From NCBI GenBank assembly GCA_016179965.1, contig JACPCF010000008.1, positions 9,601 to 73,600 on the forward strand: a stretch of DNA of 64,000 bases, given 5' to 3'. This stretch comes from Candidatus Rokuibacteriota bacterium. Lineage in GTDB: Bacteria; Methylomirabilota; Methylomirabilia; Rokubacteriales; CSP1-6. The translations under genes and the position numbers were made by a program. The notes beneath the pieces were generated by a model. That model ran no database searches and had not been told where the DNA came from. It saw only the letters and a program-made list of their open reading frames with translations. This document shows positions 20,398 through 39,730 of this stretch, piece by piece (position 1 is the first letter of the stretch; every line of letters starts with the position of its first letter).

Positions 20398-20426
20398 GCG
20401 GGTGCGACCCCGGGACCCTCGTCGCT

Positions 20427-21575: not shown

Positions 21576-21600
21576 CTCTCCAGCTTACCTTACCCGGGCT

Positions 21601-22116: not shown

Positions 22117-22261
22117 GGGGACCGGCGAGTACGCGGTGAAGTCGGTGAACCCCCGCGCCCGCAGCTCGCCGATCGCCCGGACAGATTACTGGGATCTCCT
22201 CGTGAGCGATCCTCCGCTTGCTCAGTACCTCGGGGCTCGAGGGTTTGATCTGGAAGTGGAA

Positions 22262-22300
22262 AAACGGGCACGCCCGGTTTGGGCATGCCCGTTTGACGAG
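22262..22300 (-). terminator. rho-independent terminator downstream of the DUF1344 gene (minus strand)
   Basis: On the minus strand AAACGGGCAUGCCC...GGGCGUGCCCGUUUUU: GC-rich hairpin followed by a U5 run, immediately 3' of the stop at 22312. Confidence 0.5.
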
Positions 22301-22311
22301 GGAAGAACCGT

Positions 22312-22566
22312 TTACTGCGAGACCTCAAAGCTCGTGACGATTTTCTTGCCGTCCCGCTCCTCGTAGGTGGCCTTCACGGAAGCCCCCTCCTTCAGGGCGT
22401 CCATTGAGAGGCCCTCGGCCATCCAGAGCTGGGTACCGTCCTCAAGGACGAATATCCGATCGGCGGGATCTACTTTCTGGATCTTCCCCCCGACCTGTCC
22501 AGCCCAGACACCGCCCGCTGAAACGACCAACAGCATCGCCAATGCGACTCCTAAGACCTTCTTCAT
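22312..22566 (-). CDS. DUF1344-like small secreted protein
   Basis: RBS GGAGGA before ATG; signal peptide MKKVLGVALAMLLVVSAGGVWA; about 60-aa mature domain. Confidence 0.6.
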   Translation of the reverse strand: MKKVLGVALAMLLVVSAGGVWAGQVGGKIQKVDPADRIFVLEDGTQLWMAEGLSMDALKEGASVKATYEERDGKKIVTSFEVSQ

Positions 22567-22772
22567 GACGGATCCTCCAGTTTTGGGGTGCAGGTAAGCG
22601 TCGCCGCATGGAGAGCCGGAGCTTCTGCTTCCGGAAACTCTCGCCGCAGGCTTGCCAGCCGACCTTTCCAAACCCTCCTATACCGGCCCTCTCTTACCGG
22701 CTGAAGAAAAATATCCAAACGTAGATGGCGAGCACTACCCCGAACCCCATGACCGTGCCGAGCTGCCCCACC

Positions 22773-23132
22773 CTAGTCACCTCCTGCCCGCGGGAAACCC
22801 CAAGGGCTCTCTCCCCTCGCCCGCAAGCGCCCCCAGCGCCAAGATGAAAGCGCCGCGACCAGCCGAGCGACAGTCTGACCTTGGACGCCTTTATGCGCGC
22901 GGACCCGTGATCGATCGCCAGGACTGACCGGGCCCGGTGGACTCCCCCGCCACCAGCCGTCTATGCGCCGCATGAGGCGCCGGGCTCGGCCGGAGCCCAG
23001 GTGGAGAAGGGCCACCCCAACCAGCAGGGGAAACACACCGGGGAGGTCGGGATGAACGAGCCCGATCGCTCCGACCGTCACCAGGGCCCACCCGAACCAT
23101 CTCCGAAGCCGCCGCCGATTCCTGATAGTCAT
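22773..23132 (-). CDS. small transmembrane protein, PGPGW-family-like
   Basis: Two TM helices flanking a P/G-rich turn (LVHPDLPGVFPLL); weak similarity only. Confidence 0.35.
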   Translation of the reverse strand: MTIRNRRRLRRWFGWALVTVGAIGLVHPDLPGVFPLLVGVALLHLGSGRARRLMRRIDGWWRGSPPGPVSPGDRSRVRAHKGVQGQTVARLVAALSSWRWGRLRARGESPWGFPRAGGD

Positions 23133-23219
23133 CGGCTTCCCTCCTCGATTACCCCAACCGCCACCAGACTCCAGCCGAGCACCTTCCTGGCTACGCCGGT
23201 CATCCTGCCCTCCAAGCTC

Positions 23220-23525
23220 TCACCGGAAGATCCGGAGCATCCCGGAGAGGAAGCCGCCCTCGCCCTCCCCCAGGCGCTCCAGTTCGCCGCAGTCGAGCCA
23301 GATCCCGTCGCAGCGCGAGCACTTGTCGATCTCGACTCCCCGGTAGTGGACCGGCACGAGTTCGCCCCCGCAGCGAGGGCAGAGCATGGCGCCGAGCTTC
23401 GCGATCCGCCGGCGGCTCTCCTCCATCTCTTCCCCCCGTCTGGCCTCCGCCTCCTTCCGCCGCCGCTCGAACTCCATCCGCGCGAAGTACTCTTCCTCCT
23501 GGTTGCTCGGTTTCTGGATTGCCAT
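23220..23525 (-). CDS. zinc-ribbon protein (zf-TFIIB-like CPxCG...CxxCxG)
   Basis: CPRCGGELVPVHYRGVEIDKCSRCDGIWLDCGELE four-Cys ribbon after an acidic, Arg-rich N-terminus. Confidence 0.6.
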   Translation of the reverse strand: MAIQKPSNQEEEYFARMEFERRRKEAEARRGEEMEESRRRIAKLGAMLCPRCGGELVPVHYRGVEIDKCSRCDGIWLDCGELERLGEGEGGFLSGMLRIFR

Positions 23526-23547
23526 CGTCACGCCTCCCTGGCGAAGC

Positions 23548-24888
23548 TCACGACAGCTTCTCACTGCCCGGGTTGGGGACACGCCCCACGGCCTCCCCCC
23601 AAGAGAGCCCCCCGATCCGGAGCTTCAGCAGACCGAAGAACCCCCGCCGGCTCTCCCGGCTCGCTACCAGGAAGAGGACCGAAAACACGAGGTACGAGTA
23701 GGCGAACAGGTAGCCCGCGGCGAACGCGAACCCGGGGAGCGATGCGAACAGCTGGGGGAACATTTGAGGGAGCAACTGGGTGAGGAGCTGGGTTGAGAAG
23801 AGCAAGAAGAGAAGCGTCCCCTCTCTGAGCGAGAGCGAGAAAGAAGCCAGCACCACGACCCCCAGGAGGGACTGGGCCGCGGTGAGGAAGATCTCCTTGA
23901 CCTGCACCGCGTCGAGCGGCATCGCCCCAATTTGGGCTGTGGAGAGGCTGTAGGCCAGGGGCAGTGCCCCTACCAGGAGCGTCCACTGGTTCACCTTGGA
24001 GGACAGGAGGATCCCCATGCCCGCCGCAGCGCTTCCGCGGAGGACGAACAGGGTCGCAACAATGAACTCGGGGGACTCGGAGGCCAGGGGCGCGAGCCAC
24101 TGGATCAGGAGGTACTCCGGGACCTGCAGGATCTTTCCTGTGGCGATCAGGGACTCAGCGAAGGGCTCCGCCGCCACGAGGATCGTAAGCCCGGAGAAGA
24201 GGAACATGACGACGGTGGTCGCCCGTCTCAACGGGATGGGAAGCCGTCGGATGAGCACGGGTGGCCCCACGAGGTGCGGATCCTCCACCGGCTGGCGCGT
24301 GACCGCTCGGAGGTAGAACCCGACGAGGGCGAGGAGCACCACCGAGTCCACCAGCGACAAGGTGCCTTTGAGGGGGATCAAAAAGGAGTAGCCGGTGGCG
24401 AGCAGTAGGTAGCGTAGCTCGATGCCGTGGGCCGGCTCCAGCTGAATCTCCGTCTGCCTCCGCCGGCTCTTAAGCCACAGAACGAAGACAAGCGCGGCCC
24501 AGCCGACCCCGATCAGGAGGCGGTTGGCTCCCGTCATATTGGCCGTGGCGTAGCCGACGTAGGCGGGATCCTTTCCGGCCTGCCAGGCCAGGTAGAGGTC
24601 TACGGCGTACTCGGGGAGGACGGCGATGATGGCCAACGCCGCGATGGCCAGGCTCCGCGGGATGTCCAGCTGGGCCAGCTCGGCTGCCCAGGAGAGGATG
24701 AACGCCGCGCCGAGAATGCCTGCCCCCGAAGAGAGGGCCTCGAGGGCGGACGGGAGGTGGGCCCCGCTCCACCGGACCAGGAGCCACTGGAGCGCCAGCC
24801 CAAACGTGGAGATAAGCCAGATCGCGTGCCCGGTCGTCCCATTACCTCGACCTGCCGCTCCAGCTGCCGTCATGGCATCGAAGCCCAT
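23548..24888 (-). CDS. CaCA-superfamily (Na+/Ca2+ exchanger-like) membrane transporter, divergent
   Basis: 10-11 TM segments with two alpha-repeat-like motifs (VLPEYAVDL and [17 protein letters not shown]); start codon uncertain (24888 or 24873). Confidence 0.55.
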
Positions 24889-25270
24889 CCTTTCCACGAG
24901 GATCGGAGGACGACAAAAAAAGGCCGGCAGAACGCCCCCTACGAGGCATCCCGCCGGCCTGTGCTCCAACTGGCCCTTCCCGGGAGGGAAGTGCCCTCTG
25001 GCGAACCCGCCGTGCGTCTAAACTACTTCAACCTTAGTGGGAGTCGTCCCCCTTGTCAAGGGCTCGTGGCCCACCCAGGACTTTTCGCCGCGCTTGGCCG
25101 CGTGATGCGCCTCGTTGACTTTCCTTCACAGTCCAGAAGATACTGAGGCCGTGGCGACAAGCAGTCCGGAACCGATAGCCCCCGCACCGGCCTGCGCGGA
25201 TCTGCTCTTGATAGAGACCTCAAGCTAGGCGCGGCTCCACAGTTCTCACCCGCAGCCTCGGCGCTCGACG

Positions 25271-25648
25271 ATGGCCGGAAAGACCAAGGGACAGGTCGAA
25301 GCGGAAATCAGCCAGACCCTGGTGAAGTTCGAGCTGGAGTACATGGGCCGAGGCCCTAGCGACGTCCGGACCCATCTCCTGGGGGACATGGTTGTGGTAC
25401 GGCTCAAGGGGATCCTCACCCCGGCGGAGCGGCAGCTCGTCAAGGCCGAGGGCGTAGAGCTGATCAAGCAGGTCAGGGCCAAGCTGCTTGAGACGGGGCG
25501 GTCCGTGCTGAAGCAGCGGGTGGAGCGGATCACCGGCCTCTCTGTCGTGAGCATGCACTCCGATCTCAGCACCACGACGGGAGAGCGGGTCATTCTCTTC
25601 GTCATGAGCGAGAACGTGGAAGAGAAGTTCGCGGGCCTCAGAAGATAA
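25271..25648 (+). CDS. DUF2294 (MpsC-like) protein, paralogue 1
   Basis: 125 aa; conserved with 25831-26196 and 28101-28478 (FELEYMGRGP... / LTPRS.EVR...G..L). Confidence 0.7.
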   Translation: MAGKTKGQVEAEISQTLVKFELEYMGRGPSDVRTHLLGDMVVVRLKGILTPAERQLVKAEGVELIKQVRAKLLETGRSVLKQRVERITGLSVVSMHSDLSTTTGERVILFVMSENVEEKFAGLRR

Positions 25649-25658
25649 ACGGCGTCGG

Positions 25659-25688
25659 CTTGACAGCAGGAGGTCGCCCCGGGTAGAT
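25659..25688 (+). promoter_or_regulatory. sigma-70-like promoter (TTGACA, 18 bp, TAGATT)
   Basis: Consensus -35 and good -10 located after the stop of DUF2294-1 and about 70 nt upstream of a strong terminator. Confidence 0.4.
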
Positions 25689-25754
25689 TGACTCAGAATC
25701 TGACGGCAGACTAGCCAGAAGGCACTTCCCTCTGGAGGGGCCGGCTGGAGCGTA

Positions 25755-25795
25755 GGCCGGGGGAGACTGGCAGAGGTCTCCCCCGGCCTTTTTAT
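25755..25795 (+). terminator. rho-independent terminator (GGCCGGGGGAGAC, loop, GUCUCCCCCGGCC, then UUUUUAUU)
   Basis: 13-bp perfect GC-rich stem, 8-nt loop and T-run. Confidence 0.6.
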
Positions 25796-25830
25796 TGTCC
25801 GGGTCCGAACCAGGAAGGGAGGGATCACCC

Positions 25831-26196
25831 ATGGAGCGGCAAGAGATGGAGCGACGCCTTGCCGAGCTGACACAGGGGTTCTTCCGGGCCAAGCTGCGCC
25901 TGACCCCTCGGTCGATGGAGGTCCGGGAGGAGGGCGACGCGCTGGTTCTCAGGGTCAACGGGTTCGTCGCCCCGGCTGAGAGGGCGATGATTGACCACCC
26001 CAAGGATCGGTGGGCGATTGAGGACTACTACCTCCGCCTGTTCGATCAGCTCACGCCTCTGCTGAGAGCTGGGGTCGGAAAAGCCGGTCCCCTCGTCAAG
26101 GTGCAGACGTTTCTCGATCTTTCAAGTGATGAATACCGCTGTATTTTGACCTTGGCGAGGCAAGGCGAGGTGATGTGGGCGGATTCTCGCGAATAA
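25831..26196 (+). CDS. DUF2294 (MpsC-like) protein, paralogue 2
   Basis: RBS GGAAGGGAGGGA before ATG; about 60% identical to paralogue 3 over the N-terminal 100 aa. Confidence 0.7.
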   Translation: MERQEMERRLAELTQGFFRAKLRLTPRSMEVREEGDALVLRVNGFVAPAERAMIDHPKDRWAIEDYYLRLFDQLTPLLRAGVGKAGPLVKVQTFLDLSSDEYRCILTLARQGEVMWADSRE

Positions 26197-26209
26197 GGAG
26201 GGAGCAGGG

Positions 26210-26455
26210 ATGTGGCCATTTGGGAAAATCGCCTGCGGGGTCTGTGGTGAGCGCTTTTCGAAGGGCGAGCTGAAGCTCTCACTTCGCGAAAGAAGCGTCG
26301 CGGTCTGCCGCCACTGTTTCGAGGGCTGGTGGATGCGGGGCCGGAAATGCGACCGGTGCGGGGAGCAGGTGACAGGGACTCAGGCCGTCGCGGTCTTCCC
26401 CGAGCACCGGAGCCTCGGGCACTTCGACTGCGGCGGGGTCCCCCTGAGCGCATAA
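26210..26455 (+). CDS. small Cys-rich zinc-finger protein (candidate anti-sigma factor or sigma-associated regulator)
   Basis: RBS AAGGAGGGAG; 81 aa with CGVCG...CRHC...CDRCG...C, i.e. at least two CxxC pairs; sits immediately upstream of the sigma-70 gene. Confidence 0.55.
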   Translation: MWPFGKIACGVCGERFSKGELKLSLRERSVAVCRHCFEGWWMRGRKCDRCGEQVTGTQAVAVFPEHRSLGHFDCGGVPLSA

Positions 26456-26592
26456 CCTCCGCCGGGCGCAGGACCGACTTCGAATAATGGGAATGGGGCC
26501 GATCCCTCCCGCTCCTACGAAGCGCGAAGCCGACTCATGAAGCGGCTGGGAGAGCTTCAACACGCCCTCCACCAGCTGAGACGTGCCGTATC

Positions 26593-28047
26593 ATGACCTT
26601 CAGCGAGCTTGTCCATCCCCGTCCGCAAGGCGTGAGCCTGGAGCCGGTTGAGCCCGCCGACCGGACCGTGGTCTGGGACGAGGAGCCTGTGGGCCACGGC
26701 GACGCCCCCCCGTCGCTCCCTTCCGCTCCCCAAGACCTCGTGCGCACCTACCTGAGGGAAATCGGAAACCGCCCCCTGCTGACGGCGGCCCAGGAAGTGG
26801 AGATCTGCCGTCGGCTCGAGAGCGCCCAAGCGGAACTCCGGCGAGCGCTCGCCGCAATCCCGCTGGCTGTCCAGAAACTCATCGACCGTGCCGACAGCGC
26901 GCGGAAGCACGCCACCCCGCTGGATGAGCTGATCCTTCTTCCCGACGGGAGGGAACCCAAACGGGAGGAGGTCAAGCGGATCCTCGCCGCATTTGCCCGG
27001 ATCAAGCGGCTTGAGCGGGAGATCGAAAAGCTCCGGGCTGACCTCAAAGACCGGCGTCGCTCGGCGTCGACCCGCGCGAGCTATCGCGGCCTGATCGCTC
27101 GGCGCCGCGCGGCCATTCAACAGGTAGTGGCTGGCCTTCCCATCAAGCCGGCCCTCGTGGACGAGCTGGCCGCAGAGGTCCAGCGCCTGAACGACGAGAT
27201 CCAAAAGCTCTCGGCGGGCTCCACGGTTCGGCGGCGGGGGCAGCAGCTCCGCGCTCTGGAGGCCAAGATCGGGCTCCCCCGCCAGCAGCTCCAGGGGCTT
27301 CTGGCGATCATCGCCGAAAAGCAGGGGGGCGTGCGTGAGGAGAAGGGCGAGCTGGTCGAGGCGAACCTGAGGCTGGTGGTCTCGGTGGCCAAGCGATACC
27401 AGAGGAGTGACCTGTCGCTCCTGGACCTCATCCAGGAAGGCAACATCGGGCTCATGAAAGCGGTGGGCCGATTCCAGTACCGCCGCGGGTTCAAGTTCTC
27501 GACCTACGCCACCTGGTGGATCCGGCAGGCCATCACCCGCGCGATCGCAGACCAGTCCCGGACCATCCGCATCCCCGTTCACATGGGTGAGGTCCTGCAC
27601 CAGCTCTCACGGCTGCACCGGTCCCTCATGAACGAGTTGGGGCGCGAGCCCACGCTCGAGGAACTCACCCGCCGAATGGGCATTCCTGACAAGAAGGTCC
27701 AGCTTATTCTGACGTCTTCGCGGATCCCGGTATCGCTGGAGAAACCGGTCGGCGAGGACTCCCAGCTCAAAGATTTTCTCCAGGACACGCAGACCGTCTC
27801 GCCCGAGAGCGAGCTCTTCGGCCGGGACTTGAGCCGGCAGGTGAAGCGGGCGCTGTCCACGCTTTCTGATAGGGAGCGGGAGATTCTCCGTCTCCGCTTC
27901 GGGATCGGGCGGGAAGGCGAACACACCTTGGACGAAGTCGGCCGTCACTTCTCGGTGACCCGGGAGCGGATCCGCCAGATCGAGGCCAACGCCTTCCAGA
28001 AGCTCCGGCTCCGGAAGGCAAGCCTCAGGGTGCTGATCAAGAGCTAG
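26593..28047 (+). CDS. RNA polymerase sigma-70 factor, RpoD-like (regions 1.2, 2, 3, 4)
   Basis: Region 2 [34 protein letters not shown] and [30 protein letters not shown] match RpoD better than RpoS; region 4 HTH at the C-terminus. Confidence 0.9.
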
Positions 28048-28100
28048 CCGGAGGCATTCGCTATCTCTTGTCCGTGTCGTGATCCAGGGAGGGCCCGCCC

Positions 28101-28478
28101 ATGGAGCGCCAACAGGTAAGGGAGCGAATCCGCGAGCTGACGCTGGCGTTCTTTCAAGCCAAGCTGGGCCTGACCCCTCGGTCGGTGGAGGTCCGGGGCG
28201 GGGGAGACACGCTCGAGGTCAGGGTCAGGGGGTTTTTCGCGCCGGCAGAGAAGGCGCTGATTGACCACCCCAAGGAGCGACGGGCCATCGAGGACTACTA
28301 CCTCCGGCTGTTTGATCAGCTCCTTCCTCTCTTGAACGCCGGGGTCGGAAAGGCCGGCCCCATTGTCAGGGTCCAGACTCTTCTCGATCTTCGGGGCAAT
28401 GAATGCGTGTTCATGGTGCCCCTGGGGAAGGAAAGCGAAGTAATTATCCAGAATCCTGCGGAGGCCGAGCGGGAGTAA
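28101..28478 (+). CDS. DUF2294 (MpsC-like) protein, paralogue 3
   Basis: Strong similarity to 25831-26196 (LTPRSVEVR, FAPAEKALIDHPKERRAIEDYYLRLFDQL). Confidence 0.7.
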   Translation: MERQQVRERIRELTLAFFQAKLGLTPRSVEVRGGGDTLEVRVRGFFAPAEKALIDHPKERRAIEDYYLRLFDQLLPLLNAGVGKAGPIVRVQTLLDLRGNECVFMVPLGKESEVIIQNPAEAERE

Positions 28479-28984
28479 GCAGCAGCGGCGCGGGAAATAA
28501 GGAGATCGGGGGAGCGATCCAGCGACGAGACGACTCGGAGCGAATGGGACTCTGCGCCAGCAAACGTTACGACGACAAGCGCTGACTATTAGCGTCTTTG
28601 CGAGGAGGAGGCGGCGATGTGGAAATGGGTAGGCGTGACGATCACGGCCACGGCGGTAGCGGCGATGACCCTCGGCTGCTCTCAGCAGCCGTCAGGGACG
28701 GCAGCGGTGATCGAGGACAAGATCTACACGGTGACGCCGGCCTCGGTGAAGGTGAAGGCCGGGATTCTCGCGGGCGAGGTCACGGAGATGAGAGTCACGG
28801 AGCGGGTCGAGAAAGGCTCCGGCCGCGTCGTTTCCCCGGCGAAGCTCACGGGGACGCTCAAGCTGAAGAATAGCTCTAAGGATCAGGCCGTCCGCCTTGT
28901 TGGGGGAAAGATCCAGTACATCGATGCCCAGGGGCAACCGATCAAGCTCGAGGAGACACGGACCGAGCCGACTATTAAGAGCCT

Positions 28985-29170
28985 CTAACAAAATGAGCCT
29001 GCAGGATTCAGGTAATTCCAGCAGATGAGGGAGCACCCGAGAGACAGAAACGCTTCATGAATCTCTGGACGGCGTTCGTAGCGAACACGCAGGCGACGGA
29101 ATTGGTGCAGCCACGCGAGGGTCCGTTCCACCACCCATCGATAGACACCGAGCAGGTTGCCCAGACTCAT
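28985..29170 (-). pseudogene. IS5/IS4-family (DDE_Tnp_1) transposase C-terminal fragment
   Basis: RWVVERTLAWLHQFRRLRVRYERRPEIHEAFLSLGCSLICWNYL is the conserved C-terminal block of IS5-family transposases; the N-terminal ~250 aa are absent. Confidence 0.6.
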
Positions 29171-29193
29171 AACGCTGGATGCTAGCCGTCTCG

Positions 29194-30198
29194 TCAGTGG
29201 CCTGGTGCGCCCAGGGTCGCCACAACCACTGCGCCCACCAAGTAGATGGACGCCATCAGCACCAGGCCAGTCGCAGCCACCAGGCTATGGAGCCGGTTGC
29301 GCCCCAGTATCAGCCCCAGCCCCAGCAAAATCAGGGCGATGGCTACCCCTCCGGCGACGAAGTGGGCGGGCTCGGTCTGATTGGTGAGGATACCGTCGCG
29401 ATAGAAGAGGTCGGCGTAGAACAGGATAGTGACATTGAAAGCGCAGCTACCGTACAGGCAACTGACCGCCAGGTCCACAGCCCCCATGCGGGCGGCGGCG
29501 ATGGTCGATGACGCCTCCGGCATGGTGGTCACCAGGGAGACGGCCAGGATGCCCAGGGTGCTGGAGGCCACGCCCGTGATCTCGGCAATCTGGTCGCTAC
29601 TCCAGGCCAAGAAGAATCCGGCCACTATCACCCCTGCGGAGACCAGGGCAAACATCAACGAGGCCCGCTGCAGGGTCATGGCCGGCTCGTCTCCTTGCTC
29701 CTCATCATTCTGGGGGCGAGTCACGTACACTAGCCGCATTGCCACTACATACAGCACCAGGAGGATCACCGAGGATAGCCCGATGTTCCACAGGGAGACC
29801 TCCATCTTTACCGCGCCGAACATCACGGCTGCTCCGGTCATGATGGCTGCGGACACAATCAGATAGCCCTGCTCCGGCGCTACCCGCTGCAAGAAGCGCT
29901 TGCCACCGAACGCCAGGGCCACCATAGACAGGGTGAGCATGTTGAGCATGTTGGCCCCCAGCACGTTGGCCACCGCCAGCTCCGGGTTGGGCGGACTAAG
30001 CCGCACCGCAGAGATGTTGGTCGCCAGCTCTGGTAGGGATGTGGCTAAAGCCAGCAGGACGGTGCCCACGAAGAGACGGCCCCAGCCGGTCAGGGCGGCC
30101 AGGGCGTCGCTGTATTTGGCGAGCTGGGTGCCAAAGAAAATAACTGACGCAGCGCTGGCCAGGAATATCAATACTGCTATTGCCAGGTCACCACTCAT
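29194..30198 (-). CDS. CaCA-family Na+/Ca2+ exchanger-like membrane protein (YrbG-type), apparently intact cargo gene
   Basis: RBS GAGGT before ATG; 10 TM segments with two alpha-repeats (GTSLPELATNISA and MPEASSTIAAA). Confidence 0.8.
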   Translation of the reverse strand: MSGDLAIAVLIFLASAASVIFFGTQLAKYSDALAALTGWGRLFVGTVLLALATSLPELATNISAVRLSPPNPELAVANVLGANMLNMLTLSMVALAFGGKRFLQRVAPEQGYLIVSAAIMTGAAVMFGAVKMEVSLWNIGLSSVILLVLYVVAMRLVYVTRPQNDEEQGDEPAMTLQRASLMFALVSAGVIVAGFFLAWSSDQIAEITGVASSTLGILAVSLVTTMPEASSTIAAARMGAVDLAVSCLYGSCAFNVTILFYADLFYRDGILTNQTEPAHFVAGGVAIALILLGLGLILGRNRLHSLVAATGLVLMASIYLVGAVVVATLGAPGH

Positions 30199-30330
30199 TC
30201 ACGGATACCTCATCAGTTGCTGGGCCCAGTCGACTTCTCCGGCCTCACGCGCGTGATGCCGGCGCTCTGGCCCGCTCCATTCCTCCCCGGCCAGCTTGGC
30301 GGCCAGCCAGACGATGACCAGCCCGCGGAG
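30199..30330 (-). pseudogene. remnant of the KefB-like antiporter 5' end (N-terminal ~20 codons plus upstream DUF465-gene fragment to 30500)
   Basis: LVIVWLAAKLAGE matches the N-terminus of the 20427-21575 protein; 30380-30500 is homologous to the DUF465 gene (…IARTDNRQFKARLRHDEQIIQGLIEKL). Confidence 0.5.
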
Positions 30331-30581
30331 CTCCGCCATCGTCCCTGGTGTGAAGGATCCCACCGGTAAATTCAGGGGGAGCCGAGCTTCTCGATGAGCC
30401 CTTGAATGATCTGTTCGTCGTGCCTCAGTCGCGCCTTGAATTGACGGTTGTCGGTCCTGGCGATCTCCATGCGGAGATCGCTCAGTGCGCATTTCGGTCG
30501 TCGTGAACACCCCGATCGCTCCATCATGAACGCTCAGATCGGCGCATGGTGATCGGAGCGCAGCGACGCTGGGCGGTTCAG

Positions 30582-31195
30582 TCAGTCGTCGAGCTTGGCC
30601 TCCTTTCTCCGTGAGGGTCCTTTTAGCACAAGTCGGTGGGCGTTGTGAAGGAGGCGGTCGCAGATCGCATCGGCCAGGGTGGCGTCGGCCAGGTAGTTAT
30701 GCCACTGGGCCGGCGGGAGCTGGCTGGTGATGATGGTCGAGCGAGTGCCATAGCGATCCTCGAGGATCTCGAGCAGGTCGCGGCGCTCCGGGTCCTGCAC
30801 GGGGGCGAGGCCCCAGTCGTCGATCACGAGGACGTCGAGGCGGGCGAGCTTGCCGAGCAGGCGGATGTAGGTGCCATCGGCGCGGGCCAGGGTGAGCTCG
30901 TGGAAGAGGCGAGAGGCGCGGCGGTAGCCGGCGCGATAGCCCTTGCGGCACGCCTGATGTGCCAGGGCACACGCGATGAAGCTCTTCCCGACGCCGGTGG
31001 CGCCGACCAGGATCACGTTGTGGTGCTCAGCGACCCAGCGGCAGGTGGCGAGCTGGCGGACGACGGCCTTGTCGAGCTCGCGCCGGGCCGGGTAGTCGAT
31101 CGCCTCGAGACACGCCTGCGAGAGCTTGGCCTCCTGGAGGGCGCGGACCAGGCGCTTGGCCCGATGCGCCCGGGGATCTGCCCAAAGAGGCTCTG
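30582..31195 (-). pseudogene. IS21-family IstB helper ATPase, N-terminally truncated fragment
   Basis: Walker A LVGATGVGKS, Walker B DVLVIDDWG, C-terminal LLHNAHRLVLKG; upstream frame shows ...LVRALQEAKLSQACLEAIDYPARRELDKA matching IstB region 2; about 45 N-terminal residues missing. Confidence 0.7.
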
Positions 31196-31867
31196 TGTCA
31201 AGTGGCTTTCAGCAAGCTGGAGGATGAAGTACCGGGCATGCCGGATCAGGCGCCCACCGGTCTTGAACACCCGCTGCTGTAGGCTCGTTAGTGACCAGCT
31301 CTGAATGGCAGGGGGCAGGACAAGCCGACGCCAAAAACCTTGCTCATTTTGTTAGAGGCTCTAAGTTTCCCACGTACGGCGCCGAGCGGCTCGACCCTGG
31401 GCAGGATGCGACCCAGTCCGTGGACGTGGACTTCCCCGCCGAAGCCCTGAAGGTGAAGAAGCTGAAGGAGATCCGCCTCGAGCTCACGTACATCCCGTCA
31501 CCGTACAAGGAGGAGACGGTCAACTTCACCGTGTCGATCAGCGGCCAGTAAGTCGGGGAGGTGGCTTCCCCCGCAGTCACCTCCGAGAAATCAAGCGTAA
31601 TGTGGGCGGACTCTTCCTAACAAGGAGGCCGGGCGCGGAAAAATGAAAACAACTGGTGGGCAGGGACAGTATTGAACCGCCGCCATCAGGATTTTCAAAT
31701 ACTTGATCCCCATCGCTTGTCTCAGCGAGATGAATGGAAACCCACCAAATTGAGCCCGGGAAGTGAAACCCTTCCACACTACACTCAACAATTCGCCAGT
31801 CGAGGCGGCATTGCTCTGCGACGACGCTGGGTATTGCGGCCACCGAAGGTCGAGACCATGATCATCG

Positions 31868-32100
31868 TGACCAGCGCGGAGTAGAGCTCTTGTTCGACCA
31901 CGCGGTTGGCAAGGCCGATGCCCGCGAAGATCAACCTCACCTCGCCGCGCGGGATCATGCCCACGCCGACTCGCCCAAGACGGCGGTCTGGCCGACGCGC
32001 TCCATCGCCTCGCCGGCCAACTTGGCCGCGAGCCAGACGATCACCAGGCTGAGCAGGAGCTCGCCGAGTCCCACCTCTCCAGCTTACTTTATCCGGCTCC
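31868..32100 (-). pseudogene. third, internally deleted copy of the KefB-like antiporter (C-terminal ~30 codons fused to N-terminal ~35 codons plus native upstream region)
   Basis: 31868-31965 is homologous to 20480-20600 (…ANRVVEQELYSALVTMIMV). 31966-32100 is homologous to 21470-21600 including the start codon and the leader; about 870 bp of the gene is missing. Confidence 0.55.
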
Positions 32101-32120
32101 TGTGTTGGTAGCCCGGAACT

Positions 32121-32315
32121 TCATGCGGAATCCGTCGTCACGGAAGCCGAGCTCAGGCGCTCGATGAGTTTACGAGCAATCTCTTCATCGCGCTTTAGCT
32201 GCGCCTTAAACGTGCGGCTGTCCGTCCGGGCGATCTCGCGGTCGAGATCGGCCAGGTATCTCTTCAGCGTTTCCCGCAGGAACTCATGCTCTTCTCGAGT
32301 CAGCGTGAGCGTCAT
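32121..32315 (-). CDS. DUF465 (YdcH-like) small protein, intact copy
   Basis: 64 aa, LADLDREIARTDSRTFKAQLKRDEEIARKLIERL resembles the YdcH/DUF465 pattern; degraded homologues sit upstream of both other antiporter copies. Confidence 0.55.
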   Translation of the reverse strand: MTLTLTREEHEFLRETLKRYLADLDREIARTDSRTFKAQLKRDEEIARKLIERLSSASVTTDSA

Positions 32316-32336
32316 CGGGTTTCTCCTTTCGGAAGG

Positions 32337-32435
32337 CGTTCCTCAAGGCAGGAGCTTGATGAGTGCCGCGATCCCGAAGATGACTGCCATCATGGCGAGG
32401 GCGACAAGGAGACCCGAGTATTTCCTCTCTTTCTC
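32337..32435 (-). CDS. 32-aa single-TM micro-protein (MQEKERKYSGLLVALAMMAVIFGIAALIKLLP)
   Basis: Short ORF conserved with the sequence ...WGAALAMMAVTFTVAATVKLLT* at 21601-21670; below ORF-track length cutoff. Confidence 0.3.
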
Positions 32436-32848
32436 TTGCATAGCAATCCTCCGTCACAGACTTCGAGTGTAAAATGAGCGAAACCGGTGGATCAGAAGGG
32501 CCGGACGGAGGTCAGGCGTCTTCGGTGGCGTTCCGCGGAGATAGGTCGGATGAGGGGTCCCGGCGCGGGAGAAGCGCGATGCGATTGGAAAGATTCACAT
32601 TCATTCGGAGATCGACCGAGGCCTGCAAGGTAAGTCGTGGCAGGTCGATGGCCAGGCGGAGTGGCTCCACCCGCGGCGGCGGCGCGAGCTCCTGCCCCTG
32701 GACGGGCTGGACCCTGAGTGCGACCACTGACTCGTCGGGGTTGAAACGGAATGCCCCTGCCGAAGGGACCGCCAGGTCCATCACGACGTGGGCCAGAACG
32801 AACAGGATGAAGAGCCGCTTCACGCCTCCTATAATACGTTAATCGGCC

Positions 32849-33523
32849 ATGGTCGAGCCAGCCCCCTTCGTCTTCTTCGGGTGCATCGAGCTGAGGGAGA
32901 TTCTCGGCCTGCGAGCCCGGGACGAGCGGGAACTGATGGAGCTCCTGGAGCGCGCCCCGCTCGGATCGGTCTACTACCACACCCACAGCGTCTTCCTGCG
33001 CCACCACCAGATTACGGGCGCCTATCCGAATGACTTCGCCAACTGGGTGGCCTCGCAGGTGCGGGACCAGGTGCTCGGCGAGCGCCTGGCCGTCGTGGAC
33101 CCGTTCGCCTTCCCCAGTCTGGAGGCCCTGCGGGAGGAACTCGTGTCCATCATCGATCACCACATCGCGGCCCTGCATCCGGTGCCCCGGGTCGTCTTCG
33201 GGGATCCGTTCTTCTTCGTCCAGTCGCACGTGATCGAGGTGCCCACCGGCCTGGAGGCGTGTACCCTCGGCGAGTTTCGCCGGTGCCTCGCGGAAGTGGA
33301 TGCCAGCTCGATCTACTTTCACGCGCTGGAATCCAGGGTTCGGCGCGGGCACCCCCATGGGGATTTCGCCGACTGGATCGGGCAGGCGCTGGGGCTCCAG
33401 TCCCAGGCGGAGGAGATCGCGCGGATCAATCCCTACCTGGGGGGCCTGGAGGAGATCCGCGCCCGGATGCTCCGGCTCCTCGACGCTGCGCTGGGAGGGG
33501 AGGCCCCCGCCGGTGGCGGCTAG
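32849..33523 (+). CDS. hypothetical protein translationally coupled to treT
   Basis: 224-aa protein-like ORF whose stop overlaps the treT GTG start by 11 nt; no family assigned. Confidence 0.5.
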   Translation: MVEPAPFVFFGCIELREILGLRARDERELMELLERAPLGSVYYHTHSVFLRHHQITGAYPNDFANWVASQVRDQVLGERLAVVDPFAFPSLEALREELVSIIDHHIAALHPVPRVVFGDPFFFVQSHVIEVPTGLEACTLGEFRRCLAEVDASSIYFHALESRVRRGHPHGDFADWIGQALGLQSQAEEIARINPYLGGLEEIRARMLRLLDAALGGEAPAGGG

Positions 33524-34721
33524 CGCGCTCACCATCGAGGCCTACCGGGAGGTGGCCCCGAGAGGGACGATCGACTTCCTCCTCCGCCTCGCCGAACGGG
33601 CGCGCGGGCGGCGCTTCCTCCACGTGAACTCGACGCGCTTCGGCGGGGGCGTGGCCGAAATCCTCAGCCGGCTCGTGCCCATCATGGGGGACCTCGGGAT
33701 CAAGGCGGACTGGGAGGTCATGGAGGGTGATTCGGAGTTCTTCGCCACCACCAAGGCCTTCCATAACGCGCTCCAGGGCACCGAGCAGGTGGTCACCGAG
33801 GCAATGCTGGAGCATTATCTCGAGGTCAACCGGGTCAACGCCGAGCGCCTCAGGCCGGCGGCCGATCTGGTGCTGATCCATGACCCCCAGCCGGCGGCGA
33901 TGATCGAGTCCCGCCCGCCGGAGGGGAAGTGGGTCTGGCGCTGTCACATCGATCTCTCCCTCCCTCAGCGCCGCGCCTGGGCGTTTCTGCGAAGGTACGT
34001 GATCCGCTACGACGCGGCCGTGTTCTCCCTCCCGGCCTTCGCCCAGCAACTGCCGATCCCCCAGTTCCTCGTCTATCCCTCCATCGACCCGCTGGCGGAA
34101 AAGAACCGCCGGATGACCAGGAACGAGATCGCGAAGATCCTCGGCGCCCTCCAGATCCCGGACGACAAGCCGATCCTCCTCCAGGTCTCGCGCTTCGATC
34201 GCTTCAAGGATCCGATCGGCGTCATCAACGCCTACCGGATGGTCAAGCGCTACCACGATGTCCGGCTGGTGCTGGCGGGGGGCGGCGCCACGGACGACCC
34301 TGAGGGGGCGCAGGTGCTCGCCGAGGCGCGCGAGGCCGCCGGCCGCGATCCCGACATCTACGTGCTCGACCTGCCGTCCAACGCCCACCTCCAGATCAAC
34401 GCCCTCCAGCGCGCTGCCGCGATCGTCATCCAGAAGTCCACGCGGGAGGGGTTCGGCCTGACGGTGGCCGAGGCGATGTGGAAGGGCAAGCCCGTCGTCG
34501 GGGGAGCGACGGGAGGCCTCACGGTGCAGATCCTCTACGGGGTCACAGGGTACACCGTCAACTCCGTGGAAGGCGCCGCCTACCGGATCCGGTATCTCCT
34601 GAGCAACCCGGCCCTCATGCGGAAGATGGGGGAGGCCGGGCGCGAGCACGTGCGGCGGAATTTCCTCATCACTCGGCACCTCCGGGATTACCTCTCCCTC
34701 CTGGTCCACCTCACCGCCTGA
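33513..34721 (+). CDS. treT: trehalose glycosyltransferring synthase TreT (GT4 family)
   Basis: Collinear with archaeal and bacterial TreT: HVNSTRFGGGVAEIL, FHNALQG, WRCHIDLS, LQVSRFD, EGFGLTVAEAMWKGKPV. Confidence 0.9.
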   Translation: MAASALTIEAYREVAPRGTIDFLLRLAERARGRRFLHVNSTRFGGGVAEILSRLVPIMGDLGIKADWEVMEGDSEFFATTKAFHNALQGTEQVVTEAMLEHYLEVNRVNAERLRPAADLVLIHDPQPAAMIESRPPEGKWVWRCHIDLSLPQRRAWAFLRRYVIRYDAAVFSLPAFAQQLPIPQFLVYPSIDPLAEKNRRMTRNEIAKILGALQIPDDKPILLQVSRFDRFKDPIGVINAYRMVKRYHDVRLVLAGGGATDDPEGAQVLAEAREAAGRDPDIYVLDLPSNAHLQINALQRAAAIVIQKSTREGFGLTVAEAMWKGKPVVGGATGGLTVQILYGVTGYTVNSVEGAAYRIRYLLSNPALMRKMGEAGREHVRRNFLITRHLRDYLSLLVHLTA

Positions 34722-34918
34722 CACACAGGGGCCGAGATGAACCCGATCTTCCAATGGATCGTTGCCCATACCACGGCGAAGTCGCTGGCACGACGCTGCC
34801 CACAATGTCAACGCACGCAAATTGTGGGTCGCAGCCAGGTCCGGGACACGGTACCCTGTGAGTTTTGCCGAACGCCTATTCCGCCGAAGGGCAGTTCGGG
34901 AGAAGGCTCGGGCACCTG

Positions 34919-36619
34919 ATGCCGGAGTTCCCCTTTTTCCGCGATCTCGTCCTGGCGGTCGGCGCGGCGCTCGTCGGAGGAGTGGCCGCTCAGCGCCTCG
35001 GCCAGCCTCCGATCCTCGGCTACCTCCTGGGCGGCATCCTCATCGGCCCTCATACCCCGGGGCCGGTCAGCGACGTCCACCGCGTCTCGACCCTGGCCGA
35101 CATCGGGATCGTCCTGCTGATGTTCGAGCTCGGCGTCGAGTTTCCGGTGTCGCGCTTGCAGAGGGTCCGGGTGATCGCCATCGGCGGCGGTCTGCTCCAG
35201 ATCGTCCTCACAGGGCTGGCGGCGGCGGCGGTGGCCCGGGGCCTCGGCTTTGGCGTCATCGAGCACGTGTTTTTCGGCGCCGTCGTCTCGCTCTCCAGCA
35301 CCATCGTCGCGCTCACGCTCCTGCTGGAGCGAGGGGAGATGGATACCCCCCACGGCGACATCACGGTGGGGATCTGCCTCGTCCAGGATCTGAGCCTGAT
35401 CGCGATGATGGTGCTCTTGCCCGCGTGGGCGGCGGCCGAGGGCGGGGTGGGCATCCCCCTGCTCCTCGCGCTGGGCAAGACCCTGGGACTCTTTGGCGGC
35501 GCCTATTTCGTCGCGTCTCTGCTGCTCCCCATTCTGTTCGCCGCGGTCGCACGCCTCAGGTCACGGGAACTCTTCCTGCTGATGGTGGTGCTCGTGGTGC
35601 TCGGCACAACCGTCACGCTCGCGGCCCTCGGTCTGTCTCCGGCGCTCGGAGCCTACCTGGCGGGGATAGTGGTCAGCCGCTCCCACTACAGCCGACAGGT
35701 GTTGGCGGAGCTGGTTCCGAGCCGCGACCTCTTCGCGAGCCTCTTCTTTGTGTCGGTGGGCATGCTCGTGGACCCGCTGCTGCTCTGGCGCCATCCCGGG
35801 ACGCTCCTGGCGGTCATCGGGCTCATTACGCTCCTGAAGGCGGGCGTGTCGGCGCTGGTTGTTCGCGTGTTCGGCTACCCGGCGGCGACGGCCATCATGG
35901 CCGGGCTCCTGCTCGCGCAGGTAGGGGAACTATCCTTCGTGCTGGCGAAGCTGGGCGTGGACGCCGGCTTTCTCAGCGCGGACCTTTACGGGGTGGTACT
36001 GGGAGGTGCGCTGATCTCGATCGTCCTCAACCCCGTGCTCCTACGGCACGCCGCCCCGTGGCTCGCCCGGCGCCCCGCGCGCCCGCTTGAGACACCGAGC
36101 CCTTTGGCCTCGGCCCTCCCGGAGGCATCGAGGCTGGTCGGCCACGTGGTGATCTGTGGATGCGGTCGGGTCGGCAGCGAGCTGGTGGCCCAGTTGCGCC
36201 CGCGAGGTGTGTCGTATGTGGTGATCGAGTTGAACCCCCTCCGGGTGGATGAGTTGCGACGACAGGGGGAGCCGTGTCTCTTTGGCGACGCCAGCAACTT
36301 CCACATCCTCCGCGCTGCGGGCGTCGAACGGGCCAGTCTCCTGGCCATTACTCACTACGATGCCGCGGCGGCGGAAACGACGGTTCGGAGAGTAATCGAG
36401 ATCCACCCGTCGCTCAAGATCATCGCGAGGGCTCACTACCCGACGGACGTTCAGCGCCTTCGGAAGGCCGGGGTCGCGGAGGTGGTCATGCCGGAGTTTG
36501 AGGCCGGGCTGGAATTTCTCCGCTGGACGCTCGGGCACCTGGGGGTCTCACCCGCCGAGGCCGATGCCCTGATCCAGCGCCGGCGTGCGGAGTTGAGGCC
36601 GGGCGAGACAACACCGTGA
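34919..36619 (+). CDS. CPA2-family K+/H+ antiporter (KefB/KefC-like) with C-terminal RCK/TrkA-N domain
   Basis: 12-13 TM helices, then Rossmann motif ICGCGRVGSELV and RCK core. Confidence 0.85.
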   Translation: MPEFPFFRDLVLAVGAALVGGVAAQRLGQPPILGYLLGGILIGPHTPGPVSDVHRVSTLADIGIVLLMFELGVEFPVSRLQRVRVIAIGGGLLQIVLTGLAAAAVARGLGFGVIEHVFFGAVVSLSSTIVALTLLLERGEMDTPHGDITVGICLVQDLSLIAMMVLLPAWAAAEGGVGIPLLLALGKTLGLFGGAYFVASLLLPILFAAVARLRSRELFLLMVVLVVLGTTVTLAALGLSPALGAYLAGIVVSRSHYSRQVLAELVPSRDLFASLFFVSVGMLVDPLLLWRHPGTLLAVIGLITLLKAGVSALVVRVFGYPAATAIMAGLLLAQVGELSFVLAKLGVDAGFLSADLYGVVLGGALISIVLNPVLLRHAAPWLARRPARPLETPSPLASALPEASRLVGHVVICGCGRVGSELVAQLRPRGVSYVVIELNPLRVDELRRQGEPCLFGDASNFHILRAAGVERASLLAITHYDAAAAETTVRRVIEIHPSLKIIARAHYPTDVQRLRKAGVAEVVMPEFEAGLEFLRWTLGHLGVSPAEADALIQRRRAELRPGETTP

Positions 36620-36634
36620 CCGCCCGAGGCGCCG

Positions 36635-37390
36635 TCAGCCGATGGCGGTCACGAGCCAGGCGAGGAGCCCCCGGACCGCGGCGGGGCCCGGGAGCCGGTA
36701 GTTGGCCCGCGCGGGCTGCCGCCCCACTGCCACGCAGAGCGCTCGGCCGCGGAGCGCTCGGAAGGCCTCCGCGTCCGTTTGATCGTCCCCCAGGTAGAGC
36801 GTGACGGGGACCCCCTGGCCGAGGGACCTGCCCAGAATACGGCGGAGGAGCCCCGCGGCTTCTCCCTTGCCCCAGGCGACGTCGGGTCTCAGCTCGAGTA
36901 CCTTCTGCCCCGCCAGGACTTCCAGAGTGGGGCCCTCGGCCGCGACCCGCCGGACTGCAGCCCGCAATGCCGGAAGGGCCGCCGGGGGGGCGAGCCGGTA
37001 GTGGAGGCTCACCATTAAGCCCTTCCACTCGAGGAGCGTGCCAGGGACGTAGGCGGCGGTCCGCCGGAGTTCCCGCTCAGCCCTTCTCAGGCGCCGAACC
37101 AGCCGTACCGCCCGTGGGTGGCGAAAGCGAACCCCGCGCCAGGCAATCTCGAGGCCGTGGCAGCCAGCGTAGGCCGCGCCGGGGACCCTCACGCGCGCCC
37201 GGACGTCGCGGAGGCTGCGCCCCGAAACGATCCCCACCCGGGCCCGAGGGTGGCGGCTCAGGCGGGCGAGAAGGCGCCGCGTCTCGGGGGGGAGGCGGAC
37301 AGCCTCGGGGCGAGCCCGGATGGGCGCCAGCGTGCCATCCAGGTCGGAGAGGAGGACGAGCCCCCGGCCGCCTCGGAGGGCGGCGGTCAG
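36635..37390 (-). CDS. otsB: trehalose-6-phosphate phosphatase (HAD family) with unresolved start
   Basis: HAD motif I LLSDLDGTLAPI is encoded in-frame upstream of the GTG proposed by the ORF track (37237). That upstream frame has no ATG, GTG or TTG and abuts the otsA stop (frame +1); a CTG at about 37390 is the only candidate. Confidence 0.6.
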   Translation of the reverse strand: MTAALRGGRGLVLLSDLDGTLAPIRARPEAVRLPPETRRLLARLSRHPRARVGIVSGRSLRDVRARVRVPGAAYAGCHGLEIAWRGVRFRHPRAVRLVRRLRRAERELRRTAAYVPGTLLEWKGLMVSLHYRLAPPAALPALRAAVRRVAAEGPTLEVLAGQKVLELRPDVAWGKGEAAGLLRRILGRSLGQGVPVTLYLGDDQTDAEAFRALRGRALCVAVGRQPARANYRLPGPAAVRGLLAWLVTAIG

Positions 37391-37415
37391 GTGAGCGCGG
37401 AGCCGCCGCGTCGCG

Positions 37416-39644: not shown

Positions 39645-39730
39645 TTCCGACTCACGATCACAATTTTACTTCGGCCGGGCGTCTTTGGCCAGGTGAGATA
39701 ACTTCTGCCGAAGGCAAGGCGCTCCGACGC

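What the first reader, a model, noticed from the sequence alone, without database searches (positions are those of the whole stretch)
28617..31551. Lipoprotein gene split by a 2.4-kb element with perfect 20-bp terminal inverted repeats and a TAA target duplication; excision restores the frame
GAGCCTCTAACAAAATGAGC at 28979-28998 reappears inverted at 31342-31361. Each copy is flanked by TAA (28976-28978 and 31362-31364). Deleting 28979-31361 plus one TAA joins ...GAG CCG ACT ATT AAG to TTT CCC ACG TAC GGC... in frame (…TEPTIK-FPTYGAERLDPGQDATQSV…SISGQ). That splice yields a lipoprotein of about 185 aa. A 3-bp T-N-A duplication is the hallmark of one IS5 subgroup, and an IS5-type transposase C-terminus (RWVVERTLAWL...) lies just inside the left repeat. 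The interior no longer encodes a transposase. Instead it carries an intact CaCA exchanger gene with its own RBS, plus IstB (IS21) and antiporter fragments. So this is a non-autonomous, cargo-bearing derivative that could still be mobilised in trans.
Basis: seen in the sequence. Interest (0 to 1): 0.65.

Follow-up and report, generated by a model that had tools for sequence, protein, structure and literature searches.

The report
Transposase-less IS5-type cassette splitting a lipoprotein gene
A conserved lipoprotein gene of an uncultivated Rokubacteria/Methylomirabilota bacterium is interrupted by a real 2.4-kb insertion that has the ends of an IS5-family insertion sequence but no transposase. 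Instead it carries a patchwork of foreign DNA that includes a complete calcium/cation exchanger gene, a rare but already known kind of cargo-carrying mobile-element derivative.

Summary
A perfect 20-bp inverted repeat (28979-28998 / 31342-31361) is flanked by TAA on both sides. Removing it restores a 182-aa lipoprotein. Six metagenome contigs from close relatives carry the uninterrupted gene with a single TAA, so this is an insertion. It was assembled independently in six sequencing runs and one NCBI MAG.

The repeat is the terminus of a widespread IS5-family lineage (IS427/IS1237-like). The lineage includes 876-906-bp full copies with two transposase frames and 89-591-bp MITEs. Nearly all copies are flanked by TAA or TTA.

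The interior is a co-oriented mosaic with no transposase:
- the last ~55 codons of the IS5 transposase;
- a 1.34-kb operon fragment with an intact CaCA gene, 95-97% identical to IS-free metagenomic operons;
- a 15-nt filler;
- an IS21 istB fragment;
- the left-type end of the IS.

None of the internal junctions lies at an IS terminus.

It fits a mobile insertion cassette (MIC)-like derivative. Whether it moved as a unit or was remodelled in place is unresolved. I found no second copy and no close master element. I rate it a new member of a known kind, of moderate interest.

The parts
28617..28978 (+). 5' part of the lipoprotein gene: signal peptide with MTLGC lipobox-like motif, codons 1-120 plus two bases of codon 121. 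As it stands the ORF ends at 28988 after adding S-L-stop from the IS end.
   Evidence: the lipobox fit to the PROSITE lipoprotein pattern was read by eye
28976..28978 (.). Left copy of the TAA target duplication.
   Evidence: the empty sites have one TAA
28979..28998 (+). Terminal inverted repeat, right-end type (IRR). It contains the transposase stop codon (..SFC*).
28985..29152 (-). Remnant of the IS5-family transposase: about the last 55 codons of orfB, covering the E of DDE (YRWVVERT). It is fused to the first 7 codons (MSLGNLL) of the gene that follows CaCA in L043. The join is at a shared CTCG.
29149..30485 (-). Captured operon fragment, 1,337 bp. It is 97.3% identical to L043 and 94.8% identical to L042, where the operon is not associated with any IS.
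29194..30198 (-). Intact CaCA (Na_Ca_ex) cation exchanger gene, 334 aa, with two Na_Ca_ex repeats and a GAGG 9 nt upstream of the ATG.
30199..30339 (-). 46-codon 5' fragment of a Na+/H+ exchanger gene. It is also present upstream of CaCA in the natural operon L042, and its stop codon abuts the CaCA ATG.
30372..30485 (-). 3' two-thirds of a small (57-aa) leader ORF of the operon. Its first 20 codons are missing.
30486..30500 (.). 15-nt filler of unknown origin between the operon fragment and the IS21 fragment.
30501..31166 (-). IS21-family fragment: istB from profile position 47 to its stop (30582-31166) plus 81 nt of 3' sequence. The IS21 terminal repeats seen in L041 are absent.
31167..31335 (-). 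Fragment of an IS1380-like (PF13701) transposase, profile positions 373-431 of 435.
31342..31361 (-). Terminal inverted repeat at the right end. The 15-17 nt inside it (TTTTTGGCGTCGG) resemble the sub-terminal left-end sequence of full-length copies, so roughly 35 bp of an IS left end may survive.
31362..31364 (.). Right copy of the TAA target duplication.
31365..31551 (+). 3' part of the lipoprotein gene (61 codons plus stop).

Best explanation
The 2,383-bp segment 28979-31361 is a non-autonomous, cargo-carrying derivative of an IS5-family insertion sequence of the IS427/IS1237 type, structurally a mobile insertion cassette (MIC). Shown: it is an insertion into a TAA in a conserved lipoprotein gene, with a 3-bp duplication. 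Its two 20-bp ends are the conserved termini of that IS lineage. It has lost the transposase except for the last ~55 codons. It carries an intact CaCA exchanger gene plus debris of IS21 and IS1380-like elements. Inferred: the mosaic was put together earlier, in an IS-rich donor region, by illegitimate joins. This is suggested by the 4-nt microhomology, the 15-nt filler, and the fact that no internal junction lies at an IS terminus. A cognate DDE transposase supplied by a full-length copy then bound the two repeats, cut the whole segment out and pasted it into TAA. The effect on the host is truncation of the lipoprotein after residue 121 and acquisition of an extra cation exchanger gene. Whether that gene is expressed is unknown.
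For: The IR is perfect and not expected by chance. Six contigs carry the empty site with one TAA at 92-99% flank identity, and intact 182-aa homologues are 99% identical. The filled site was re-assembled at 100% identity in six Logan runs, and the right junction appears in GCA_016187535.1. The same 20-mer lies at 28 + 63 public loci, nearly all flanked by TAA/TTA. Thirteen of these are full-length 876-1,051-bp copies with DUF4096 and DDE_Tnp_1 frames, and at least 15 are MITEs of 89-591 bp with matching TWA duplications. Non-autonomous relatives therefore do get mobilised in this lineage. A second long IR-bounded unit with a passenger gene exists in L106. The cargo matches IS-free operons at 95-97%. 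All four internal junctions are between internal points of their parent sequences. The flanks of filled and empty alleles differ by only 1-3%, which leaves little time for four or more rearrangements inside one 0.9-kb IS at this site (inference).
Against: No second copy of the cassette was found in any other context. A 25-mer across the left end gave 0 hits in JGI metagenomes. All contigs carrying the exact CaCA protein are this same locus. No close master was found. The best match to the 170-bp left end is 75%, and no Methylomirabilota species representative carries the exact repeat. No cognate transposase lies in the 64-kb window. Nothing directly shows that the mosaic pre-dated the insertion.
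Confidence: 0.5

Rival explanations
1. Remodelling in place. A complete ~0.9-kb IS inserted at the TAA. Its interior was later replaced at this very site. One route is interrupted repair of the excision gap with template switching to ectopic sequences, as is known for internally deleted or filler-containing cut-and-paste elements in eukaryotes. Another is nested insertions followed by deletions. Under this view the cassette itself has never transposed.
For: Both ends and the duplication are intact while every internal junction is a non-transposase join with microhomology or filler. All five pieces are co-oriented. The cassette is known from one site only. An IS21 relative about 90% identical seems to be resident in the same population, so some templates were local.
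Against: It needs at least four joins within one small IS during the short time separating filled from empty alleles (1-3% flank divergence). No intermediate allele was seen among the contigs examined. The CaCA segment's closest relatives are in other metagenomes and it has no copy elsewhere in the window. Gap-repair capture is documented from my own knowledge for eukaryotic elements, not for this IS family.
Confidence: 0.25
2. Decayed autonomous unit. The element arrived as a longer composite transposon (two IS copies) or as a transporter IS with its own transposase plus passenger DNA, like L106. It was then reduced in place by internal deletions that removed the transposase.
For: L106 shows a 4,319-bp unit of the same lineage with a 1,137-aa cyclase/AAA gene between the left repeat and the transposase gene, and TTA on both sides. 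The left end here still holds a transposase 3' remnant. Deletions that keep both ends are the usual route to MITEs (own knowledge).
Against: No longer allele was seen. It still requires several independent deletions at this site in a short time. In L106 the matching TTA flanks are weak evidence, because TWA is the preferred target anyway, and its empty site was not tested.
Confidence: 0.2
3. Assembly artefact or ancestral split gene. The contig is a chimera formed at repeated IS sequences, or the two gene halves were never contiguous.
For: The source is a metagenome-type assembly. The related assembly L041 shows three patches of about 10% divergence, which suggest strain or paralogue mixing.
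Against: Window 28833-31091 is reproduced at 100% identity in up to six separate Logan assemblies, five of which span the left junction. Positions 30757-31846 are reproduced with one mismatch in an NCBI MAG. The perfect repeats, the TAA duplication, the restored frame and the six empty-site contigs are not what a chimera would give.
Confidence: 0.02

Closest known systems
Mobile insertion cassettes (MIC231 of Bacillus cereus, derived from IS231 of the IS4 family; cited in PMC3129680, PMC3281130 and PMC4133298)
   Same: IS-type inverted repeats at both ends, no transposase, passenger gene(s) unrelated to transposition, and a target duplication. Movement is expected only with a transposase supplied in trans.
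   Different: Different IS family (IS5, not IS4) and a different phylum. The interior is a patchwork that also holds debris of three transposase or helper genes. It is single-copy, and trans-mobilisation has not been demonstrated.
IS1237 and related IS427/IS1031-type members of the IS5 family (PMC2516522; IS427-group features in PMC3281130)
   Same: Ends start with GAG, the 3-bp TTA/TAA duplication is the same, relatives of the parent element are ~0.9 kb long with two overlapping transposase frames, and they tend to land in or beside other ISs.
   Different: The window element is 2.4 kb and keeps only ~55 codons of the transposase. The repeat sequence differs from that of IS1237. Relatives combine two frames (IS427-like) with a 3-bp target (IS1031-like), so the subgroup assignment is not clean.
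MITEs of the same IS lineage (e.g. 89-90-bp copies in Thermoguttaceae MAG JANXAQ; L006, L009, L021)
   Same: The same 18-20-bp termini and TWA duplications, and they are non-autonomous.
   Different: MITEs are short, non-coding and multicopy. This element is 2.4 kb, carries a gene and is known from one site.
Transporter IS, composite transposons and IS1380-driven transposable modules (PMC3129680, PMC3281130)
   Same: IS ends mobilising non-IS genes.
   Different: Those carry at least one working transposase gene. Here there is none, and neither end is a complete IS.
Tourist MITEs and Pack-type gene-capturing derivatives of eukaryotic PIF/Harbinger and MULE elements (own knowledge; the IS5-Harbinger relationship is shown in PMC12730594)
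   Same: A 3-bp TWA duplication in a related transposase superfamily, and non-autonomous elements whose interiors are patchworks of captured host fragments.
   Different: Those are eukaryotic. The capture mechanism has not been shown for bacterial IS5 elements.

Membership tests
IS5 family, IS427/IS1031-type insertion sequence | Short terminal inverted repeats beginning GAG | tested here: met
   A perfect 20-bp repeat is present. The same 18-20-mer ends full-length copies elsewhere.
IS5 family, IS427/IS1031-type insertion sequence | 2-4-bp (here 3-bp TWA) target duplication | tested here: met
   TAA lies on both sides and a single TAA is present in six empty sites. TAA/TTA flanks nearly all other copies.
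IS5 family, IS427/IS1031-type insertion sequence | Encodes a DDE transposase (DUF4096 N-terminus plus DDE_Tnp_1) within 0.8-1.0 kb | tested here: not met
   Only the last ~55 codons remain and the element is 2,383 bp. Relatives do meet this feature. The window element is therefore a derivative, not an IS.
Mobile insertion cassette (MIC) | Bounded by the inverted repeats of a known IS and flanked by its target duplication | tested here: met
Mobile insertion cassette (MIC) | No transposase gene | tested here: met
   Pfam scans and tblastn find only transposase fragments.
Mobile insertion cassette (MIC) | Carries passenger gene(s) unrelated to transposition | tested here: met
   An intact 334-aa Na_Ca_ex gene of the same length as its closest homologues.
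Mobile insertion cassette (MIC) | Mobilised in trans by the cognate transposase (more than one insertion site, or an assay) | tested here: inconclusive
   No second site was found and no close master. An assay is not possible with these tools.
MITE | Small (tens to a few hundred bp), non-coding, multicopy | tested here: not met
   The element is 2,383 bp, carries a gene and is known from one site.
Composite transposon | Two complete IS copies flanking the cargo | tested here: not met
   The left end keeps about 170 bp of the IS and the right end at most about 35 bp.
Transporter IS (tIS) | Own transposase gene plus passenger gene between one pair of repeats | tested here: not met
   There is no transposase here. 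L106 is a candidate tIS of the same lineage.
CaCA (Na+/Ca2+ exchanger) superfamily, for the cargo gene | Two Na_Ca_ex repeats in a full-length polytopic protein | tested here: met
   PF01699 matches at E = 8.6e-26 in two stretches. The protein is 334 aa, like its 93-96% identical homologues. The alpha-repeat-like motifs TSLPEL and TTMPEA are visible in the sequence. Transport activity is not testable here.

The most novel reading that the evidence does not exclude
This IS5 lineage may recurrently capture host DNA just inside its left end. Two cases are the window cassette and the 4.3-kb L106 unit with a 1,137-aa signalling gene. A possible route is interrupted gap repair with template switching or the use of stray solo ends. 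If so, it would be a bacterial counterpart of Pack-MULE/Harbinger-type gene capture, able to ferry transporter genes between phyla.
Probability: 0.12. Interest if true: 0.6.

Novelty: new member of a known kind. Interest (0 to 1): 0.35.

Why it matters
MIC-like elements are rarely annotated and are best documented in Bacillus. A clean example with a proven empty site shows that IS5-type ends can carry a functional-looking transporter gene without a transposase in Rokubacteria/Methylomirabilota, an uncultivated soil and aquifer lineage. It also gives a concrete test object for trans-mobilisation. It further shows a conserved lineage-wide lipoprotein being knocked out in a natural population. 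In addition it documents an IS lineage whose 18-20-bp termini are nearly invariant across several phyla. It does not reveal a new mechanism.

Tried and rejected
- **tRNA remnant at 31640-31700.** I suspected a tRNA 3' remnant marking an integration site. ARAGORN and Rfam, at both gathering and E<=1 thresholds, find nothing, so I dropped it.
- **Bare 20-bp right end.** I first read the right end as a bare repeat abutting the IS1380-like fragment, which would be hard to explain. Comparison with full-length copies suggests that about 15 further nt are sub-terminal IS sequence.
- **Search for a master or second copy.** Four searches were made:
  - a left-end 25-mer in JGI metagenomes gave 0 hits;
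  - the repeat 20-mer in genomes and metagenomes gave at best 75% identity to the left end;
  - a protein search with the transposase remnant returned only short fragments of 87% identity or less;
  - tblastn of a full transposase against the window found only the remnant.
- **Window's own contig.** Look-ups by exact protein for the window's other genes, to find its own contig and other junction-bearing contigs, found nothing on record.
- **Promoter or terminator for the cargo.** The consensus scan found nothing above shuffle expectation.
- **Extra 209 bp at 25850-26058.** This is not a second insertion. The relatives carry a deletion inside an MpsC paralogue.
- **L041 as a diverged strain.** I first took L041 to be a diverged strain sharing the insertion. 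It is essentially the same population, with three patches of about 10% divergence. It counts as an independent assembly, not as an independent lineage.
Full report
**1. The observation**

The sequence GAGCCTCTAACAAAATGAGC lies at 28979-28998. Its reverse complement lies at 31342-31361. With up to three mismatches these are the only two matches in the 64-kb window. None is expected in dinucleotide-preserving shuffles. TAA sits immediately outside each copy, at 28976-28978 and 31362-31364. Joining 28978 to 31365 gives an uninterrupted frame of 182 codons reading ...TEPTIK|FPTYGAERL.... The window has 68% G+C. Coding strands were checked by third-position G+C.

**2. It is an insertion, and it is real**

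The spliced protein has more than 2,000 homologues. The best are full-length 182-aa proteins, 96-99% identical, from Candidatus Rokubacteria, Methylomirabilota and NC10 metagenomes.

- Six contigs encoding the 99%-identical protein (L035-L040) share the upstream sigma-70 and MpsC genes.
- They align to the window up to 28979 and resume at 31362.
- The query overlap is 4 nt (TAAG), so the empty site holds a single TAA.
- Flank identity is 92-99%.

The filled allele is not an assembly chimera. Six Logan assemblies of separate runs (SRR12113385-SRR12113431) reproduce window 28833-31091 at 100% identity. Contig JACPJM010000253.1 of GCA_016187535.1 (L041) reproduces the right junction. It has no mismatch between 30757 and 31361. 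L041 is essentially the same population with three patches of about 10% divergence. It therefore counts as an independent assembly, not an independent lineage.

**3. What the ends are**

The exact 20-mer occurs at 28 loci in species-representative genomes. Most are Thermoguttaceae MAGs. Single loci come from Nitrospirae, Actinomycetota, Spongiibacteraceae and Planctomycetota MAGs. It also occurs at 63 loci in JGI metagenomes. Almost every copy is preceded by TAA or TTA.

Thirteen loci hold complete elements of 876-906 bp (two of 1,051 bp). These have a partner repeat differing at 1-4 positions and TWA duplications. They encode two overlapping frames:
- a DUF4096 N-terminal part;
- a DDE_Tnp_1 / DDE_Tnp_1_2 part ending ...SFC*, with the stop codon inside the right repeat.

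At least fifteen further loci are MITE-like pairs of 89-591 bp, and three more have more divergent repeats.

This matches the IS5 family. The two frames and size resemble the IS427 group (PMC3281130). The 3-bp target resembles the IS1031 group. The closest named parallel is IS1237, which is 899 bp, has GAG ends and makes a TTA/TAA duplication (PMC2516522).

**4. What is inside**

Everything recognisable is on the minus strand. From the left end to the right end, the pieces are:

| Coordinates | Content |
|---|---|
| 28979 to ~29152 | Right-type repeat and the last ~55 codons of the transposase, including YRWVVERT; homologous over its full 170 bp to the right ends of other copies, at 75% identity at best |
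| 29149-30485 | Operon fragment (details below) |
| 30486-30500 | Unmatched 15-nt filler |
| 30501-31166 | IS21 piece: istB from profile position 47 to its stop plus 81 nt; it lacks the IS21 terminal repeats that follow in L041 |
| 31167-31335 | Fragment of an IS1380-like transposase (PF13701 positions 373-431 of 435) |
| 31342-31361 | The other repeat; the 15-17 nt inside it resemble the sub-terminal left end of full copies |

The operon fragment is 97.3% identical to L043 and 94.8% identical to L042. L042 shows the natural arrangement with no IS nearby: a small 57-aa ORF, a 48-codon Na+/H+ exchanger 5' fragment, CaCA, then a full Na+/H+ exchanger. The window keeps codons 21-57 of the small ORF, the exchanger fragment, the complete CaCA gene and 45 nt beyond it. 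The join to the transposase remnant falls in a shared CTCG.

None of the four internal junctions lies at a terminus of the element concerned. They are illegitimate joins, not transposition joints. No transposase of this IS occurs elsewhere in the window.

**5. The cargo gene**

The CaCA ORF is 334 aa, the same length as its 96% and 93% identical homologues. It has two Na_Ca_ex repeats. After those two, the next best homologues drop to about 76% identity. Where named, these are from Dehalococcoidia, SAR202 or Chloroflexi. pN/pS against L043 and L042 is 0.32 and 0.56.

A GAGG lies 9 nt upstream of the ATG, and the stop of the upstream fragment abuts the ATG. No promoter-like site was found. Expression is unknown.

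The window also holds a resident Na+/H+ exchanger (20427-21575). An internally deleted paralogue lies just downstream of the lipoprotein gene (31785-32315). Both are about 80% identical to the corresponding parts of the cargo.

**6. How it most likely works**

These points are shown:
- there was an IS5-type insertion at TAA with a 3-bp duplication;
- the element has intact ends and no transposase;
- it carries a passenger gene.

This is the anatomy of a mobile insertion cassette (PMC3129680, PMC3281130, PMC4133298).

These steps are inferred. The mosaic arose by illegitimate recombination in an IS-rich donor region. It was then cut out and pasted as one unit by a transposase from a full-length copy.

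Evidence in favour:
- MITEs of the same lineage are evidently mobilised in trans;
- there is a second long IR-bounded unit in L106;
- filled and empty alleles are only slightly diverged, which leaves little time for four or more rearrangements inside one small IS.

Evidence against:
- the cassette is known from this one site only;
- no close master was found.

The main rival is remodelling in place after an ordinary insertion, for example interrupted gap repair with template switching. A third possibility is arrival as a longer autonomous unit that later lost its transposase. I put these at about 0.5, 0.25 and 0.2.

**7. Comparison and novelty**

The element meets the structural definition of a MIC. 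It fails the definitions of an IS, a MITE, a composite transposon and a transporter IS (see the membership table). Trans-mobilisation is untested.

MICs, MITEs and passenger-carrying ISs are established categories. This is a new member in a new host lineage and IS family, not a new kind.

Interest is moderate. It is a clean, well-supported example with a proven empty site, a candidate for experimental test, and a hint that this IS lineage picks up host DNA next to its left end.

Noticed in passing
L106 1263-5581 (JGI contig Ga0210378_10005335): A 4,319-bp unit of the same IS lineage. It runs from a left-type repeat with 3 mismatches to an exact right repeat, with TTA on both sides. A 1,137-aa adenylate/guanylate cyclase + AAA ATPase gene sits between the left repeat and the transposase gene. 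No repeat lies next to the transposase start. It is a candidate transporter IS. Its empty site was not tested.
   Followed up: partly
L006, L008, L009, L021 (Thermoguttaceae MAG JANXAQ); L022, L025, L027, L056, L072, L078, L079, L085, L093, L103, L105: A family of MITE-like elements of 89-591 bp with the same 18-20-bp termini and TAA/TTA duplications. The termini are nearly invariant across copies whose transposases are only about 55-75% identical and which come from several phyla. The sampling was conditioned on one exact end.
   Followed up: partly
window 31603-31621 onward: All six empty-site relatives stop aligning with the window 50-70 bp after the lipoprotein stop codon. They show different downstream contexts, including an IS256-type transposase followed by PPDK in L035/L036 and a 302-aa minus-strand gene in L039/L040. 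The window has an antiporter remnant and trehalose genes. This is a variable spot next to a conserved gene.
   Followed up: partly
window 31785-32315 (-) and 20427-21800 (-): Downstream of the lipoprotein gene lies a small ORF plus a Na+/H+ exchanger gene with an internal deletion of about 880 bp. Both are paralogous to the intact exchanger at 20427-21575 and to the cargo of the cassette. In L041 a 184-nt stretch at this position is 97.8% identical to window 21414-21597 instead. That suggests gene conversion between paralogues or strain mixing in one of the assemblies.
   Followed up: partly
L042 489-635 and 1636-1740 (ENA contig k141_1740994): In the natural operon the first ~45 codons of the Na+/H+ exchanger gene are present twice, once upstream and once downstream of CaCA. 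L043 lacks the upstream copy. CaCA itself looks like an old insertion into a small-ORF/exchanger operon.
   Followed up: no
window 30513-30756 versus L041: 26 of the 27 mismatches between the window and L041 fall in this 244-bp stretch of the istB 3' end. To the left of 30501, L041 runs on into IS21-type terminal repeats. The population therefore probably holds a complete IS21 relative about 90% identical to the fragment, or L041 is chimeric here.
   Followed up: partly
window 34047-36654: L041 is identical to the window from 32047 to 34046, then about 11% divergent to 34722. It lacks the Na+/H+ exchanger-TrkA_N gene (34865-36619) altogether and resumes at 78% identity from 36654.
   Followed up: no
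window 25271-25648, 25795-26196, 28101-28478: There are three MpsC-family paralogues around the sigma-70 gene. The middle one is intact here but carries a 209-bp internal deletion in relatives L035-L037.
   Followed up: partly
window 20400-39700: The neighbourhood is rich in cation transport and osmoprotection genes. It holds two Na+/H+ exchangers, a 473-aa CaCA protein, the MpsC paralogues, and TreT, OtsA-like and trehalose phosphatase genes. The cargo of the cassette belongs to the same functional theme.
   Followed up: no
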